A stretch of 64,000 nucleotides of DNA from Promethearchaeota archaeon (GTDB lineage: Archaea > Asgardarchaeota > Lokiarchaeia > Sigyniarchaeales > SOKP01): the NCBI GenBank assembly GCA_048937405.1, contig JBHLNF010000001.1, positions 352,001 to 416,000 on the forward strand. The letters run 5' to 3'. Position numbers and translations under genes: made by a program. Shown here piece by piece: positions 1,969 through 13,872 of this stretch (position 1 is its first letter; every line of letters starts with the position of its first letter). The notes under the pieces are model-generated. The model made no database searches. It saw only the letters and a program-made list of their open reading frames with translations, and was not told where the DNA came from.

Positions 1969-2331
1969 TTAATTAATCATGGCTGTTTCGGTAAGTATTT
2001 CATTCTTTTTTAGTACCCATGTCTCGATTTCTAATGATTGGTTTTGTTCTTTTGTAGGTTTCCATGATTTAACGGTACTTTTTGGTATCCATGCTTCTTT
2101 CTCATCAAATTTAATGAATAAAGCTTTTTCAGTTTCTTTTGTTATCATTCCTGTTATTTTTATGGTCGGTTTTGGTTTACCATTATGAATGTATGTATTT
2201 GTTTTTCGGCTTGATGTTTTTTTTGGCTGTTTTTTAGGATTATCGTTTTCGAAGCATGTATCAATTACATATTCTTTAATTGCTTCCCTTACCAGTTTTT
2301 TTATTATTTTAATATCATCCTGAGTAAGCAT
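1969..2331 (-). CDS. Hypothetical virus/plasmid-type small protein
   Basis: 120 aa with RBS GAGGTGA; C-terminal ETEKA...WIPKS...IETWVLKK pattern recalled from small phage/archaeal virus proteins. Confidence 0.6.
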   Translation of the reverse strand: MLTQDDIKIIKKLVREAIKEYVIDTCFENDNPKKQPKKTSSRKTNTYIHNGKPKPTIKITGMITKETEKALFIKFDEKEAWIPKSTVKSWKPTKEQNQSLEIETWVLKKNEILTETAMIN

Positions 2332-2586
2332 TTTTCAAAATTCACCTCTTATGAATAAGAATTTTTATCCCTATGGTTTGTGGTTAGATTTTGTGTGTTT
2401 TTGGGTAAAGTTGTCCCCTAAAAATTCATATAGGAGATCTCACACAAACAGAAATCACCGTTATCTCCTATTATTTCTGCTCTAGCGACAGCACATATCT
2501 TAAATTGAAATTTACAACACATACCCTATTTTTAATTTGACCACGTTTTTTTGTTAGATTTGCTTACAATTAAAATGATAAAAAAA

Positions 2587-2862
2587 TTAATTTGAAGAAT
2601 TATAATAGAGAGCTAAATTTAAGTTAAGAACTCGTATGTAGGATCTCATCCCTAACACAAATTTTTCTATATAATCCTTTTCTAAAATTGCCAAGTCTTT
2701 TTTACACCATTTTTGCTCGAATTCTAAAAGGAATTTTTCTAATTCTTCAAGGAACTGACAATGAGTACAGTTTTTCTTTTTATGAAGGAAAAAATTCACA
2801 GTATTAAAATTTAGATGGTCTATAAGGTATTCTTTCTTTTCTCTATACTTTGCATTTGACAT
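2587..2862 (-). CDS. Small His/Cys protein, paralog of 3358..3672
   Basis: 91 aa; H..CTHCQFLEEL...KW...KDYIE...MRSYIRVLNL aligns with H..CVYCNFLQDL...KW...KDYVE...MRAFIRILNI. Confidence 0.7.
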   Translation of the reverse strand: MSNAKYREKKEYLIDHLNFNTVNFFLHKKKNCTHCQFLEELEKFLLEFEQKWCKKDLAILEKDYIEKFVLGMRSYIRVLNLNLALYYNSSN

Positions 2863-2936
2863 TTTTTTCTCATCTTCTTATAAGTCTAAAAAAAAAGGGG
2901 ATTTGGGGTGATTTAGAATTTTAAACCTATTCCAAA

Positions 2937-3155
2937 CTATGTACTATTCTTGCAGAACAATCCAATTTTATATGGACTTGGTTCTAAATCCCAATCTTCT
3001 AGCGGTATAATTGACATTGATTTATGGTCAATATATCCACATGAAACGCATTCCCATACTTCAATTATATTTTTGTATAATCGAAGTGTGTAACGCTTTA
3101 ATTGTCCGTCTTCTTCTGTACACGAACTTTTCGTACAAGGCTTTGTAACACCCAT
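2937..3155 (-). CDS. Small Zn-ribbon protein
   Basis: 72 aa, CTKSSC...WECVSCG, RBS-like AAGGTG upstream. Confidence 0.6.
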   Translation of the reverse strand: MGVTKPCTKSSCTEEDGQLKRYTLRLYKNIIEVWECVSCGYIDHKSMSIIPLEDWDLEPSPYKIGLFCKNST

Positions 3156-3237
3156 ACTTTACACCTTTCTTCTGTTTATTGTGGTTAGATATGTGTTGTC
3201 GCTAAGTCAGAAATATTTACTAGCTTATCTCTTGTCT

Positions 3238-3713
3238 TTCTCTGCCCTTGCAACAACACATACCATCATATAGGTTGATGTAAGAGATTACAACACATAC
3301 CATATTTTTATTCTGAAGAGGTTCTTTATTTTTTAGTAGATTACTGGAAAGAAGAAGTTAAAAAAGAGATTTGGCTGACTTCGATTTCCTAAAAGAATAC
3401 TTAATGTTGAGAATTCTTATAAAAGCTCTCATACATTGTGCTACATATTCAACATAATCTTTTAACTTAATATCTAAGCCATATTCCATTTCTTCTTCGG
3501 TATATTCCTTCTCAAGCCACTTTCGTGCTTCCTTTATGATGGAAACATCAAGGTCTTGTAAGAAATTACAATAGACACAACTTTCGTCTGGTCTGTGATC
3601 ACCTTTTAAATGATGAACCGCAGTAAACGGGTTGAAGTCTATTAGATTTTCAACTTCTTGTAAAGCTTCCATACCATCACCTCTATGCTATGTGTTGTTG
3701 GAAGAGCAGAAAA
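3238..3713. repeat. Inverted-repeat pair B (3238-3262 / 3689-3713) enclosing one ORF
   Basis: TTCTCTGCCCTTGCAACAACACATA vs TATGTGTTGTTGGAAGAGCAGAAAA, 22/25 complementary; same motif family as pair A. Confidence 0.85.
3358..3672 (-). CDS. Small His/Cys protein, paralog of 2587..2862
   Basis: 104 aa, strong RBS GAGGTGATGG; shared CxxC..FL..L / KDY.E / MR..IR.LN motifs. Confidence 0.75.
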   Translation of the reverse strand: MEALQEVENLIDFNPFTAVHHLKGDHRPDESCVYCNFLQDLDVSIIKEARKWLEKEYTEEEMEYGLDIKLKDYVEYVAQCMRAFIRILNIKYSFRKSKSAKSLF

Positions 3714-3780
3714 TTTTCATCGTATCTTGCGGTGGTCGGTTCAAGCCGACTTTTATTATTCTTTTTTTATTCCTCTTTAC

Positions 3781-4782
3781 TCATTCATGTAGGATTTTCA
3801 TTTCAGATGGAGTATAATTATTATTAACCATTCTTTTCAATACCTCCACATCTTTTAGCTTATATTTTCTCTGCGTGGTTTTAATTGTCCATATTTTCTT
3901 ACTGTGTAAATCTGCATTCTCTATTTTGCAGATATATCTAGGTCTTTTACATATCGGACAATTATCAGTTATCTGAGTTTTGTAGGTCTTTACAATTCTG
4001 AATTTACTCTGATGGAGATATCCAAACAAATTATAACTGTTTTTTACTCCTGAGCTATCTTTCCATAAGGCAATTTTGCTAAGGATATAAAAAATCGTAT
4101 AATACACATTATTTCGTCGTGGCAAATGATTTCTATAAGTTGTGTTAGGGTATTTTTCCCGAAATTCAGAATTATTCATAAGATACCCAAATCCTATAAC
4201 GTGGATATGAACGTTAAGCATTTTTTCAATAGTTCTATCTTTTTCCGTACATTTACAGAAGTATACCTTTTCATTACATTGTTTACAAACACTACTCCAT
4301 AGATGTAAAAATATAATTCCTCCTAGCACTCCCATATCTTTTAGCATTGGATATACGATTTTCTTCTTAAATTTAAGATATTTTTGATAGGTCTCAAAAG
4401 TGTCTCGTCTAATGTGAAATATAATGGAAAAATGCATGATTTTCCCAATACCAATACCGTTTGCATAGCAAATCCTTCGAAATTCCTTTAGTCTATCATT
4501 TAATTTTCTAGCTTTAACTGAACATGCGGTTATAAAACACTTTTCACAGTCCAACTTGTTACAATGTTGATAGATTGATTTTTTCGAGGTAATATCCTGT
4601 TCGCATTGTAATTCATACCGTTTCTTATTGCAATTGTTCCTGTATGTTCCCTGTGATCCCGCAGGTATCCAGTTGTAGCATTTCTCAAACTTTAAATTAG
4701 CAATCTGTTCAACCTTAATGGCGGTTTTTCTGCTAATTTTATTTAATGAAGTATTATAGGTAATCTGTTTTATCTTCGACAT
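3781..4782 (-). CDS. HUH-superfamily rolling-circle replication initiator (Rep) / Y-transposase-like endonuclease
   Basis: N-terminal Cys cluster CNKLDCEKC, motif I-like MHFSII, GGIIFLH, HUH motif HIHVIGFG, motif III-like YYTIFYILSK, then LFG and C-terminal CPIC. Confidence 0.75.
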   Translation of the reverse strand: MSKIKQITYNTSLNKISRKTAIKVEQIANLKFEKCYNWIPAGSQGTYRNNCNKKRYELQCEQDITSKKSIYQHCNKLDCEKCFITACSVKARKLNDRLKEFRRICYANGIGIGKIMHFSIIFHIRRDTFETYQKYLKFKKKIVYPMLKDMGVLGGIIFLHLWSSVCKQCNEKVYFCKCTEKDRTIEKMLNVHIHVIGFGYLMNNSEFREKYPNTTYRNHLPRRNNVYYTIFYILSKIALWKDSSGVKNSYNLFGYLHQSKFRIVKTYKTQITDNCPICKRPRYICKIENADLHSKKIWTIKTTQRKYKLKDVEVLKRMVNNNYTPSEMKILHE

Positions 4783-4864
4783 ACGGTTTTAAACTTTTTT
4801 AATTTTAAATATAATATAAATCATGAATATTTAAAGCCCTATATTTTTCATTCTGGCTATTCTC

Positions 4865-5003
4865 TGTAATACAATTAAGCTAATCGTAGTACAATTTAGG
4901 TATTCGTAATACAATTCAATATATTTTGTAATACAATTTGATTTATTTTGTAATACAAAATTTCCTTTTGTACTACAAATCAGCTTTCCTATGTAATACA
5001 ATT
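4865..5003. repeat. Iteron/operator-like array: 7 copies of GTA(A/G/C)TACAA
   Basis: Copies start at 4866, 4886, 4906, 4928, 4950, 4970, 4993 (spacing 20-23 bp), directly upstream of rep. Confidence 0.9.
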
Positions 5004-7971: not shown

Positions 7972-8745
7972 ATGAGTATAGAATATAAATTAGCAGGTAT
8001 TAATCACTATTATTCAGCAAATATCAGTTTTATTGTAGAAACTGTAGCATCCACTATGCAATTTTGGGGATATATTACTACTTTTATGGAAGACGGGTCA
8101 ATTAAAGCTATAAAAGACAAATCTAGACCCTTTTATTTCTACCCTCATGAATCAAAGCAAAAACCATTGATAACAAATAAATTAGAAAAAGCAGAATATC
8201 AAATAAATCGAAAACCAGAAACTATTAAGAATCATATACTAAAGATGGGATTAATTTATTTATTTTCCCTATTTGAAGCATTTAATAAAGATTATTTTCA
8301 AGAATTATTTACATACAAACCAGATCTGATGAAAAGTAAAAAAAGGAAAATTGATTATGAAAATATACTCCAATTTGGAACTATTGAAGATTTACATAAA
8401 TCTTTAGCCGAAAATATTGTTGACAAATTTGGTTATCGAGATATTGATAAATTTGCTAAATTTATCCTAAAGAATTTTAAAATAGATTTAGATAATAATT
8501 TAGAATGCTGGTTAAATTTACGAGAAAGCTATTATAGAAGAAATTGCATTGTTCACAATGATGGGAAAATATCGGAGTTATACTTAAAGAAACTTTCATT
8601 AGGAAATAACGAGTTAAATCAAGAACTTGACTGTGATATCGAATATCTCTGGAATCTTCATCACGATATTCATTCATATATAGATTTTATTGATGAGTCA
8701 ATAAGACAAAAATTTAATTTGAAGAGTTTTATTGACTCGGTGTAA
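7972..8745 (+). CDS. HEPN-domain protein (putative RNase / defence effector)
   Basis: Rx4H motif RNCIVH(NDG) plus upstream helix LFSLFEAF with conserved E. Confidence 0.7.
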   Translation: MSIEYKLAGINHYYSANISFIVETVASTMQFWGYITTFMEDGSIKAIKDKSRPFYFYPHESKQKPLITNKLEKAEYQINRKPETIKNHILKMGLIYLFSLFEAFNKDYFQELFTYKPDLMKSKKRKIDYENILQFGTIEDLHKSLAENIVDKFGYRDIDKFAKFILKNFKIDLDNNLECWLNLRESYYRRNCIVHNDGKISELYLKKLSLGNNELNQELDCDIEYLWNLHHDIHSYIDFIDESIRQKFNLKSFIDSV

Positions 8746-10911: not shown

Positions 10912-11745
10912 TTATCTCCTTGGGTTAATTATTACTTTTACTTTGAATTCTTCTGTTTCTTTAGATAAATCATTTTGGAGTGCTTCAGGATTAGAAATCA
11001 ATTCTTGAGGATCATAGATAAAGCAATATAATATCTTACAATTTGGATGAGTCTGATATTTTGCAATATCATCATTTAATTGTACTCCAAGCTCTTTATC
11101 CTTTAAATTTTCTGAAGTTTTTTTTACTTCAATAACAATTTTTTCATTTTTTAGTAAAAAATCCATACGTGAATTACTACCAGCAAAACTAGGCGTGAAT
11201 TCTTCAGCTCTTACATCATCAAATTCTAACTTTAATAAAGCATGTAATAAATCTTGTACATCATATTCATTTTGCACTTTAATTATTGGTATTGTACTTT
11301 TACCTTGACGCTTTTTTAATTGCTTTACAAATCTATGAAATCTACTTAGAATTCGTATAAGTTTTTCTTCTACGTTTTCAGTTTTTCTCTCTCTTTCTTC
11401 TTCTGTTTTTCCGATTGTTTCTTTAGCCTTTTCAATTTCTAATTCATCCAAAATAGTCTCAATAAGATTAAAATATTTTTTTCCTTTCGTTAGTAAATCT
11501 TCTCTAACTCGTTTATTAGTAATTGATTGAGGAGTATCGGCGTAAATACTGGGGGCTTTTAGGATATCATTTTGTAAGCCCTCAAGTTGATTTAAATAAT
11601 CCCTTTCTCTTCCGAATTTTCTTTCAACAATCATTACTAATTTTCTATGGACTTTATCCAAAATATATTTAATTTCATCCTTATTTTTTTCTGGTAATTT
11701 TGTAAGATCATCAATTATTTCTTTTAGAAGTAGTTTTTCGGACAT
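10912..11745 (-). CDS. PD-(D/E)XK restriction endonuclease-like protein (DpnII/MboI-like domain)
   Basis: EYDVQDLLHALL...EEFTPSFAG...RMDFLL...VIEVKK...CFIYDP. Confidence 0.8.
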   Translation of the reverse strand: MSEKLLLKEIIDDLTKLPEKNKDEIKYILDKVHRKLVMIVERKFGRERDYLNQLEGLQNDILKAPSIYADTPQSITNKRVREDLLTKGKKYFNLIETILDELEIEKAKETIGKTEEERERKTENVEEKLIRILSRFHRFVKQLKKRQGKSTIPIIKVQNEYDVQDLLHALLKLEFDDVRAEEFTPSFAGSNSRMDFLLKNEKIVIEVKKTSENLKDKELGVQLNDDIAKYQTHPNCKILYCFIYDPQELISNPEALQNDLSKETEEFKVKVIINPRR

Positions 11746-12951: not shown

Positions 12952-13872
12952 ATGGGCTTAGTGTCAGTAAAAAATATAAAAAGTTTAATTTCCATGAGTC
13001 CATCTTTATTACAGTCAATATTTAGAAATGTTCCCTTATATGTGAATTATGACTTAACTTGGCAATGTAATTTAAAATGTCGACATTGTTATTTTTTCTC
13101 ATCAACAACGGAATTAAAAAATAAAAGAAGAGAATTATCCAACAAAGACTGGGTAAAAGTTTTTAAATACCATAGAAAATTAGGAACAAAGATTGCTGTT
13201 TTAACAGGTGGAGAACCTACTTTAAGAACAGATGTTATAAAAGAAGCGATTAAAATTTTTCCCACAGTTCAAGTTGTATCAAATGGGGTTATAAAATTAC
13301 CCCAATTTAATGGATTTAAACAACCGAAATATTGGGTAAGTATAGATGGTAAAAAGGAAACACATAATAAGATAAGAGGTGCAAGGGTTTTTGATAATGT
13401 CATACAAAATATTCAAGAAAGCAATCCAGTCGTTGCATCCACCATAATGACATTAAATTATAAGGAAATTGAAGAAATAGTTAAGATTGGTCTTGATAAT
13501 GGTGCATCTGGATTAGTCTTTTTATTATATACCGACTATCCTAACAGCTCCCTCTTATTAAAGGGAAATATATTAAAAAAGGTAATTAAAGATATTTTAA
13601 AGGTAATGCATGAATATGGAAATTTTATTTTTTATTCAAAAAAAATGTTAGAAGTATACCTATCAAAAGAATTCGTACCTCATTGTATATTCAAAACTGG
13701 TCAAATAAAAAGTTTCTATCCCGATGGAACACAAAAATTTTGTGTTATGGGAAATTCACCGCTTCTATGTGAAAATTGTGGATGTGTCGTACCAATTGCT
13801 GCATATGCCTTATTTAAGAAATTTGACGCTGGTACAGTTGATAAAACGAGAAAATTGTTTAATCTTGCATAA
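12952..13872 (+). CDS. Radical SAM protein
   Basis: CNLKCRHC (CxxxCxxC), LTGGEP, VSIDG...HNKIRG, C-terminal Cys cluster CENCGC. Confidence 0.9.
   Translation: MGLVSVKNIKSLISMSPSLLQSIFRNVPLYVNYDLTWQCNLKCRHCYFFSSTTELKNKRRELSNKDWVKVFKYHRKLGTKIAVLTGGEPTLRTDVIKEAIKIFPTVQVVSNGVIKLPQFNGFKQPKYWVSIDGKKETHNKIRGARVFDNVIQNIQESNPVVASTIMTLNYKEIEEIVKIGLDNGASGLVFLLYTDYPNSSLLLKGNILKKVIKDILKVMHEYGNFIFYSKKMLEVYLSKEFVPHCIFKTGQIKSFYPDGTQKFCVMGNSPLLCENCGCVVPIAAYALFKKFDAGTVDKTRKLFNLA

What the first reader, a model, noticed from the sequence alone, without database searches (positions are those of the whole stretch)
2378..3713. Array of small-gene cassettes, each closed by its own inverted-repeat pair, downstream of an HUH Rep
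Seen: four copies of a ~25 bp motif (TATGTGyTGTyG...CAGArA) in alternating orientation define unit A (2472-3215, 25/29 complementary ends) and unit B (3238-3713, 22/25), 22 bp apart. The adjacent A-right/B-left arms are less complementary (19/25), a modest hint that each unit's ends co-evolve. On the minus (sense) strand unit B pairs with one mismatch plus two G-U/G-T wobbles, which points to single-stranded pairing. Each left end carries a second sub-repeat (2512-2540 vs 3288-3316, 26/29 identical). TTGTGGTTAGAT recurs at 2378 and 3179, suggesting a decayed third junction. Inference: a cassette system in which genes are looped out, captured or shuffled on ssDNA made by the rolling-circle Rep (integron-like logic with no integrase in view). 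Alternatively, long-range RNA stems process a polycistronic transcript gene by gene.
Basis: partly seen in the sequence, partly recalled or inferred. Interest (0 to 1): 0.85.

Follow-up and report, generated by a model that had tools for sequence, protein, structure and literature searches.

The report
Conserved boxes bracketing small archaeal-element genes
A 24-26 bp DNA box sits in opposite orientations at both ends of small genes in a rare integrated genetic element of an Asgard (Loki-type) archaeon; it is real and strongly conserved, most likely a protein-binding control site, and no evidence was found that it works as a gene-capture machine.

Summary
Four copies of a bipartite box (TTTCTG-N8-ACARCACATA) face inward around two small-gene units next to a 333-aa HUH-type Rep. 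A half-box plus an oligo-T run sits inside each 3' copy. The box is almost confined to this locus: 4 of 5 core matches in the 4.47-Mb genome.

Only two other elements carry it: L006 (Rep 80% identical) and L319/L014/L320 (Rep 51%). Across the 10 copies, 17 of 24 positions never change, while the module's proteins fall to about 30% identity, so the box sequence itself is under selection.

Cargo differs. In L319 the boxes enclose an unrelated gene. The 104-aa-family gene there sits in a second inverted-repeat frame that is an empty hairpin in this window.

The case for single-strand pairing fails. Over five units, sense and antisense strands give identical counts (109 Watson-Crick, 6 wobble, 15 mismatches). 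No compensatory change was seen. T7-T11 runs separate the ORF from the 3' box in 4 of 6 units. The boxes follow the small-gene module, not the Rep tree.

Best reading (about 0.4): operator-type sites for a module-encoded protein that also mark module junctions. Recombination-site and RNA-stem readings remain open. No RNA or read data could be obtained.

The parts
3781..4782 (-). 333-aa Rep-like protein with HUH-type motifs
   Evidence: HIH (H192, H194) and Y228-x3-Y232-x3-K236 are invariant in 10 homologues. No Pfam or PHROG match. The AF2 model (pLDDT 66) gives its best VIA match to SIRV1 ORF119 Rep at Z 5.2, with several CRESS, parvovirus and Helitron HUH domains at Z about 4.
3735..3750 (-). 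Conserved hairpin (5-bp stem GTCGG/CCGAC) between the Rep stop codon and the first box
   Evidence: Present with an invariant stem and a variable loop in the window, L006 and L014/L319. Absent after the Rep gene in L008, L009, L013, L322 and L324.
3685..3713 (-). Box B5 (5' box of unit B), ending 5 nt before the ribosome-binding site GAGGTGAT
   Evidence: orthologous copy in L006.
3358..3672 (-). Gene B, 104 aa, CxxC helical-hairpin protein of unknown function
   Evidence: Paralogue of the 91-aa gene (31% identity). The family is very rare. AF2 pLDDT 74, two long helices, only generic helical matches.
3288..3303 (+). Inner half-box of unit B (ACAACACATACC), followed on the + strand by T5 and T6 runs
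3238..3266 (+). Box B3 (3' box of unit B)
3187..3215 (-). Box A5 (5' box of unit A), preceded in the sense direction by the A/T-rich stretch GTAAATATTT
3179..3190 (-). ATCTAACCACAA box directly after A5. It repeats at 2378-2389 before gene C, and AATCTAAC plus an A-run recurs in the unit tails.
   Evidence: (D19).
2937..3155 (-). Gene A1, 72 aa, Zn-ribbon-like, fast-evolving
   Evidence: Weak DUF2387 match. The L006 counterpart (84 aa) shares only the N-terminus and the WxCxxC motif.
2587..2862 (-). Gene A2, 91 aa, paralogue of gene B
2580..2586 (-). T7 run on the sense strand directly after the A2 stop codon (terminator-like)
   Evidence: the same run is present in L006.
2512..2527 (+). Inner half-box of unit A (ACAACACATACC), followed on the + strand by T5 and T7 runs
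2472..2500 (+). Box A3 (3' box of unit A)
2389..2448 (-). Second, 'empty' frame: nested inverted repeats (outer TTTGTGTG/CACACAAA, inner TCTCCTA/TAGGGGA with a 10-nt loop). It is nearly invariant between the window and L006.
   Evidence: In L319 and L317 the same two flanking boxes are separated by a 340-370-bp insert that carries a 104-family gene and its T-run; L318 agrees on both sides.
1969..2331 (-). Gene C, 120 aa (phrog_8389, unknown function), present in every box-bearing element
4856..5003 (.). Iteron-like array of GTAATACAA upstream of the Rep gene
   Evidence: D5-D8. The same 9-mer is repeated upstream of the L008 Rep gene.

Best explanation
The 'arms' are copies of one asymmetric, bipartite DNA box (TTTCTG, 8 semi-conserved bases, ACARCACATAyC). 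A sequence-specific protein of the small-gene module most likely recognises it. The module comprises the 104/91-aa family, the Zn-ribbon protein and gene C. In 5' position the box would lie between an A/T-rich TATA-like stretch and the transcript start, just ahead of the ribosome-binding site. That is where archaeal repressors usually act. The 3' box and its inner half-box lie in the next intergenic region. There they would be auxiliary sites, serving cooperative binding or looping with the next promoter box, or insulating it from transcription coming the other way. Because every module carries the same boxes, the boxes are also the places where modules were swapped between elements over evolutionary time. 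Shown: the anatomy, the conservation, the cargo differences, the lack of strand bias and the lack of association with the Rep tree. Inferred: protein binding, the promoter position, and looping or insulation.
For: 1. Sequence, not only complementarity, is conserved. 17 of 24 columns are invariant in 10 copies from three elements, while the Reps are 51-80% identical and 104-family proteins are 28-44% identical.
2. No compensatory change separates the window from L006. Paired positions that changed (column 13 of unit B) became C-C in the window.
3. Sense and antisense pairing counts are identical at 109/6/15.
4. Boxes also occur singly: B5 has no upstream partner, and X3 in L319 has no downstream partner. 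Half-boxes occur as well.
5. 4 of 5 5' boxes have an A/T-only run of at least 8 nt directly upstream, against 1 of 5 3' boxes.
6. T7-T11 runs lie between the stop codon and the 3' box in 4 of 6 units. On the opposite strand, T5-T8 runs follow every inner half-box.
7. The box occurs nowhere else in the element or the genome, which fits a local regulon of these genes.
8. The boxes co-occur with the 104-family and gene C module and not with the Rep clades.
Against: No DNA-binding fold was identified in any module protein. The 104-aa model is a plain helical hairpin, and the Zn-ribbon and gene C matches are weak. The strict inward orientation at both gene ends, seen in all five complete units, is not required of ordinary operators. 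Units A and B differ at columns 11, 13 and 14 in the same way on both of their boxes, in two elements. That would also fit pairing, gene conversion or partner-specific recombination. Promoter calls in a 29% G+C genome are weak. No transcript, footprint or read data exist.
Confidence: 0.4

Rival explanations
1. The boxes are recombination or cassette sites. A recombinase (the HUH Rep on single-stranded DNA, or an unidentified enzyme) would act at them to excise, invert, capture or exchange the enclosed genes, in an integron- or shufflon-like way.
For: Cargo between the boxes differs among elements: gene B or A1+A2 here, and unrelated gene X in L319. A second inverted-repeat frame is filled in L317/L318/L319 and empty here. 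The module downstream of the Rep stop codon is shared by elements whose Reps are not sister. Units A and B have box-type signatures shared by both of their ends. The Rep has HUH and two-Tyr motifs.
Against: No tyrosine or serine recombinase domain was found in the ORFs scanned. The central 8 bp differ by 1-3 bases between the two boxes of every unit, which would block recombinases that need identical overlap regions. All five complete units, and the partial one in L317, have the same orientation. The MAG and three independent run assemblies of this strain are collinear. No target-site duplications are seen, and there are no extra copies in the genome. The boxes do not follow the Rep phylogeny. 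The changes seen are old, between elements with about 50% Rep identity.
Confidence: 0.2
2. The boxes are RNA elements. The 5' and 3' boxes of a unit would pair in a long transcript into a 22-29-bp stem that closes the ORF, for processing, stabilisation or translational control. The layout resembles rRNA processing stems and ORF-bearing rRNA intervening sequences.
For: Each unit folded alone closes its ends in both the minimum-energy and centroid structures, with z about -4.6. Own-unit duplexes are -35 to -40 kcal/mol, against -23 to -32 for cross pairs. Unit B has no oligo-T run before its 3' box. The empty frame is a local hairpin and the filled frame would be a long-range stem.
Against: There is no compensatory substitution and no strand bias. 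The invariant half-sites point to sequence recognition. T7-T11 runs precede the 3' box in 4 of 6 units. TATA-like stretches suggest that transcription starts after the 5' box. There are no bulge-helix-bulge features, only 1x1 or 2x2 mismatches. No Rfam match was found.
Confidence: 0.15
3. The boxes are inert leftovers: terminal inverted repeats of a dead mobile insertion cassette, or by-products of a tandem duplication of one unit.
For: Units A and B carry paralogous genes and similar non-coding tails, so a duplication did take place.
Against: Box identity of 88-96% persists across elements whose module proteins are about 30-75% identical and whose other intergenic DNA cannot be aligned. Neutral relics would have decayed.
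Confidence: 0.05

Closest known systems
Operator clusters of temperate-virus and plasmid regulators, which bind repeated sites at several promoters and can loop DNA (phage lambda CI OL/OR; archaeal SSV1 F55). From general knowledge.
   Same: One short conserved sequence repeats in several intergenic regions of one element, overlaps the core-promoter position and occurs in both orientations. Auxiliary sites lie 30-700 bp away.
   Different: The box is asymmetric and bipartite, always faces inward at both ends of a unit, and has an extra half-box at the 3' side. No regulator has been identified and no binding has been shown.
Integron gene cassettes (IntI, attI, attC)
   Same: A tandem array of small promoter-poor genes separated by imperfect inverted-repeat sites. 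The site sequence is conserved while cargo differs between relatives.
   Different: No integrase was found. attC is a local palindrome at the 3' end of each cassette, whereas here a local palindrome exists at only one junction (B3/A5). The boxes are single asymmetric sites, and no sign of recent mobility was found.
Genes framed by repeats that their own product recognises: Ssn GIY-YIG ssDNA nucleases with NTS repeats (PMC11893778), and REP/RAYT
   Same: A small gene sits between inverted copies of a specific motif. The motif may be read on single-stranded DNA, which a rolling-circle replicon would supply.
   Different: Those motifs occur in tens to hundreds of copies per genome, against four here. 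No nuclease fold was found in the cargo. In L319 the boxes frame an unrelated gene.
rRNA processing stems and ORF-bearing 23S rRNA intervening sequences
   Same: Long-range inverted repeats enclose an ORF and could form a stem of more than 20 bp in RNA.
   Different: There is no bulge-helix-bulge and no covariation. Oligo-T runs separate the ORF from the 3' box in most units, and the context is not rRNA.
Wyrdvirus-type and unassigned Asgard mobile elements with HUH Rep genes and arrays of short genes (bioRxiv 10.1101/2021.07.29.453957)
   Same: A Lokiarchaeial element with an HUH-type Rep, Zn-finger proteins, a FtsK/HerA-type ATPase and an array of short genes beside the replication gene.
   Different: No capsid gene was identified here, and the Rep family is not found in IMG/VR. 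The gene-bracketing box is not mentioned in the passages I read.

Membership tests
HUH rolling-circle Rep superfamily (the 333-aa protein) | HUH metal-binding motif and catalytic Tyr motif (Yx3Y...K) in the canonical order | tested here: met
   H192-I-H194 and Y228-x3-Y232-x3-K236 are invariant in 10 homologues.
HUH rolling-circle Rep superfamily (the 333-aa protein) | HUH/RRM-like nuclease fold | tested here: inconclusive
   The best VIA match is SIRV1 ORF119 Rep at Z 5.2, with other HUH domains at Z about 4 among many generic ferredoxin-like folds. Foldseek found nothing at E<=0.001. Model pLDDT is 66.
Integron | IntI-type tyrosine recombinase next to the array | tested here: not met
   No recombinase domain in the ORFs scanned between window -12000 and +20500. 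Several ORFs remain unannotated.
Integron | attC: a local imperfect palindrome at the 3' end of every cassette | tested here: not met
   Only the B3/A5 junction forms a local palindrome. B5, A3 and L319 X3 lack a full local partner.
Integron | Cassette content and order vary between related arrays | tested here: inconclusive
   Content and order are the same in L006. In L319 the cargo differs and the 104-family gene sits elsewhere. Only three arrays are known.
Invertible segments (invertons, shufflons) | Both orientations of the segment occur in populations or relatives | tested here: not met
   All units have one orientation in three elements plus L317. The MAG and three run assemblies of this strain are collinear. 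Raw reads could not be examined.
Mobile insertion cassette, MITE-like or REP/RAYT element | Target-site duplications and multiple dispersed copies | tested here: not met
   No flanking direct repeats are seen in the sequence. 4 of the 5 genomic core matches lie in this locus.
RNA processing stem (bulge-helix-bulge type) | Two 3-nt bulges separated by a 4-bp helix inside the long-range stem | tested here: not met
   The stems contain only 1x1 or 2x2 mismatches.
Structured RNA with conserved pairing | Compensatory substitutions and a strand bias of wobble pairs | tested here: not met
   No compensated change between the window and L006. Sense and antisense counts are equal. No Rfam match.
Operator or regulon box of a sequence-specific DNA-binding protein | Conserved sequence at a fixed position relative to promoters of co-regulated genes | tested here: inconclusive
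   The box ends 2-28 nt before the ribosome-binding site in all five units and follows an A/T-rich stretch in 4 of 5. Promoters are not mapped.
Operator or regulon box of a sequence-specific DNA-binding protein | A cognate binding protein | not testable with these tools
   Candidates are the 104/91-aa family, the Zn-ribbon protein A1 and gene C. No DNA-binding fold was recognised.

The most novel reading that the evidence does not exclude
The boxes are the recombination sites of a cassette system native to Asgard rolling-circle elements. Small genes would be inserted into, excised from or exchanged between hairpin-forming frames on the single-stranded replication intermediate. That would be an integron-like logic built without an integrase. 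The filled versus empty second frame and the different cargo in L319 would be its footprints.
Probability: 0.12. Interest if true: 0.85.

Novelty: new variant of a known kind. Interest (0 to 1): 0.45.

Why it matters
Very little is known about how mobile elements of Asgard archaea control or exchange their genes. This locus offers a sharply defined 24-26-bp sequence under strong selection, a handful of candidate partner proteins and a natural filled-versus-empty variant. Binding, transcript-mapping or nicking experiments could therefore settle its function quickly. If it is a regulator's operator, it could serve as a portable control element for future Lokiarchaeial genetics. If it is a recombination site, it would be a new way of building gene cassettes.

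Tried and rejected
1. Public-collection scans with the 16-base pattern returned almost only chance single matches. Only the L006 contig had three. A one-mismatch pattern search in 399 Asgard genomes was noise, with controls similar.
3. Searches for more relatives gave little. The 104-aa family has only 2 clusters at 90% identity and 3 more distant members by exhaustive HMMER. It occurs in 2 of 54 genomes of the genus. The Rep family is absent from IMG/VR. Nine of 153 genomes of the order have a Rep homologue, and none of the new ones has the boxes.
4. Short Cys-rich ORFs (27-34 aa) that start at the ATG inside TATGTGTTGT were considered. They are not conserved between the window and L006 (read), so they were rejected.
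5. Promoter modelling from tRNA upstream regions failed. Only 7 tRNAs were found without intron handling, and the genome is 29% G+C.
6. Fold and atlas searches of the 104-aa protein gave only generic helical hairpins.
7. PHROG and Pfam scans did not show whether the element is a virus or a plasmid.
8. The fifth genomic core match (C7:629238) lacks the TTTCTG half and looks like chance.

Full report
CONTEXT. The window is contig C7:352001-416000 of a 4.47-Mb, 29% G+C genome. Close relatives of its proteins come from Promethearchaeota (Lokiarchaeia-type) assemblies.

All genes around the finding lie on the minus strand:
- a 333-aa Rep-like gene (3781-4782);
- gene B (104 aa, 3358-3672);
- gene A1 (72 aa, Zn-ribbon-like, 2937-3155);
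- gene A2 (91 aa, 2587-2862);
- gene C (120 aa, 1969-2331);
- a 704-aa gene that runs off the window start.

Beyond the window start lie small genes and a FtsK/HerA (DUF87) ATPase, then the host RadA gene. Upstream of the Rep gene is an array of GTAATACAA repeats, and the same 9-mer precedes the Rep gene of a relative. The element is single-copy in the genome. No integrase domain was found in the ORFs scanned.

The Rep call is reasonable. An HUH motif and a Yx3Y...K motif are invariant in ten homologues. The predicted fold matches the SIRV1 ORF119 Rep best, but only at Z 5.2, and no Pfam or PHROG family matches.

THE OBSERVATION. The core is far above chance in the window, and four of the five genomic matches are these four. 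Read in the direction of the genes, each unit is built as follows:
- an A/T-rich stretch;
- the box TTTCTG-N8-ACARCACATA;
- the ribosome-binding site GAGGTGAT;
- one or two genes;
- an AATCTAAC box with an A-run;
- a second A-run;
- an inner half-box in reverse orientation;
- 26-38 nt;
- the full box in reverse orientation.

Genes B and A2 are paralogues (31% identity), so the two units share a duplication history.

RELATIVES. Only two other elements carry the box.

L006 (same genus, Rep 80% identical) has the same genes in the same order, all four boxes and both half-boxes. Its intergenic regions are at least as conserved as its genes. Its A1 homologue is almost unrecognisable.

L319 comes from a Logan contig and is the same element as L014 plus L320. 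Its Rep is 51% identical to the window's. It has one box pair directly after the Rep gene and a conserved hairpin. That pair encloses a small gene unrelated to the 104-aa family.

In L319, L317 and L318 the 104-family gene lies further downstream, inside a different frame. The frame has a left box ending in GATCTCCTAT and a right box that starts with TTAGGA and continues to AATCTAAC. In the window and L006 the same two boxes are adjacent and form a small nested hairpin with no gene. A four-way alignment shows a clean 340-370-bp presence/absence difference.

Other Rep-bearing contigs and genomes lack the boxes, the hairpin, the 104-family and gene C. In the Rep tree the window and L006 are sister to the box-less L008 (support 98/98), with the box-bearing L014 outside that clade. 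The boxes therefore travel with the small-gene module, not with the Rep.

WHAT KIND OF CONSTRAINT ACTS ON THE BOXES. Ten full boxes were compared in one orientation, and 17 of 24 columns never vary. Module proteins, by contrast, are 28-44% identical between these elements. This is selection on the sequence itself.

Pairing is not what is conserved, for four reasons:
- The five units give identical counts on the sense and antisense strands: 109 Watson-Crick, 6 wobble and 15 mismatches.
- Column 7 is T in all 5' boxes but C in three of five 3' boxes. That gives A-C on the sense strand.
- The only position that changed in both boxes of a unit between the window and L006 (column 13 of unit B) ended as a C-C mismatch.
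- Distances between the two boxes of a unit (3-4) are hardly smaller than cross-unit distances (4-9). One cross pair equals a within-unit pair.

One hint of partner specificity remains. Units A and B differ at columns 11, 13 and 14 in the same way on both of their boxes, in both elements. In L319 the two boxes disagree at columns 12 and 14.

Duplex energies favour own-unit pairs (-35 to -40 kcal/mol) over cross pairs (-23 to -32 kcal/mol) but do not separate the strands. Folding a unit alone closes its ends, as any 25/29 inverted repeat would.

WHERE TRANSCRIPTS PROBABLY START AND STOP (inference). Archaeal RNA polymerase terminates at oligo-T runs (general knowledge). Such runs (T7-T11) lie on the sense strand between the stop codon and the 3' box in four of six units: A in both elements, X in L319, and the upstream gene in L317. 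They are absent in unit B. On the opposite strand, T5-T8 runs follow every inner half-box.

Four of five 5' boxes are preceded directly by an A/T-only stretch of at least 8 nt, against one of five 3' boxes. If that stretch is the TATA box, transcription would start about where the box ends. The box would then occupy the TATA-to-start interval and would not be in the mRNA.

In this reading the 3' box and half-box of one unit, together with the 5' box of the next, form one intergenic control region. The apparent 'closure' of each gene is then a by-product. This is the most economical account, but nothing here has been shown experimentally.

RIVALS. A recombination or cassette function is not excluded. 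Cargo differs between elements, a second frame is filled or empty, and the module has moved between Rep lineages.

Against it:
- no recombinase was found;
- the box centres are heterologous within every unit;
- all units share one orientation;
- four assemblies of this strain are collinear;
- there are no target duplications or extra copies;
- there is no link to the Rep tree.

An RNA-stem function is weakened by the terminator and promoter arguments and by the absence of covariation, although unit B could still be transcribed through its 3' box. Inert relics are unlikely given the conservation.

COMPARISON WITH KNOWN SYSTEMS. The nearest functional analogy is a regulator's operator cluster in a temperate virus or plasmid. 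The nearest architectural analogies are integron cassettes, genes framed by repeats that their own product recognises (Ssn/NTS, PMC11893778; REP/RAYT), and ORF-bearing rRNA intervening sequences. Defining features of integrons, invertible segments, mobile insertion cassettes and bulge-helix-bulge stems were tested and not met (see the membership table). Asgard elements with HUH Reps and arrays of short genes are in print (10.1101/2021.07.29.453957), and the passages I read there do not mention the box.

VERDICT. The feature is real, strongly conserved, rare and unexplained. Its mechanistic arguments (single-strand pairing, Rep involvement) are not borne out. Best explanation: protein-binding control boxes that double as module junctions (confidence about 0.4). 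Interest is moderate, rising sharply if reads or biochemistry reveal recombination at the boxes.

Noticed in passing
window 3735-3750 (minus strand), L006 7036-7051, L319 620-635: A hairpin with an invariant 5-bp stem (GTCGG/CCGAC) and a variable loop lies directly after the Rep stop codon, followed by the conserved stretch CCAnnGCAAGAnACG. It occurs only in the three box-bearing elements. It could be a terminator, a Rep nick or origin site, or the left edge of the exchangeable module.
   Followed up: partly
window 4856-5003; L008 1-450: GTAATACAA iteron-like repeats spaced 20-23 bp apart lie upstream of the Rep gene. The same 9-mer is repeated, partly inverted, upstream of the Rep gene in L008 (55% identical Rep).
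   Followed up: partly
L008 2311-3093: A related Rep-bearing contig carries a 260-aa gene with Arf/Ras/Roc small-GTPase Pfam hits two genes downstream of the Rep gene, where this window has its boxed small genes. It is a eukaryote-like GTPase on an Asgard mobile element.
   Followed up: no
window 2327-3343 and L006/L317/L318/L319 tails: A further short box, AATCTAAC followed by an A-run, recurs after each small gene and directly before gene C in all five loci. ATCTAACCACAA follows box A5 and precedes gene C in the window.
   Followed up: partly
window 10912-11745, 12952-13872, 7972-8745: The region on the far side of the Rep gene is syntenic with L006 only to about 9955. It holds a DpnII/MboI-type restriction endonuclease (E 4e-53), a radical SAM protein and a weak HEPN-like ORF. 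These may be defence or cargo genes of the element.
   Followed up: no
L326 2642-3892 (window -11358..-10108): An IS605 OrfB/TnpB (Cas12f-like TNB domain) gene lies about 6 kb beyond the apparent left end of the element, past the host RadA, Cdc6-like and RPA-like genes.
   Followed up: no
window 2937-3155 vs L006 7628-7882 and L006 11719-11895: The Zn-ribbon gene A1 is the fastest-evolving gene of the module. It cannot be aligned at DNA level between two elements that are otherwise 77-81% identical. It has a third, better-conserved paralogue further downstream (81% identity between the elements).
   Followed up: partly
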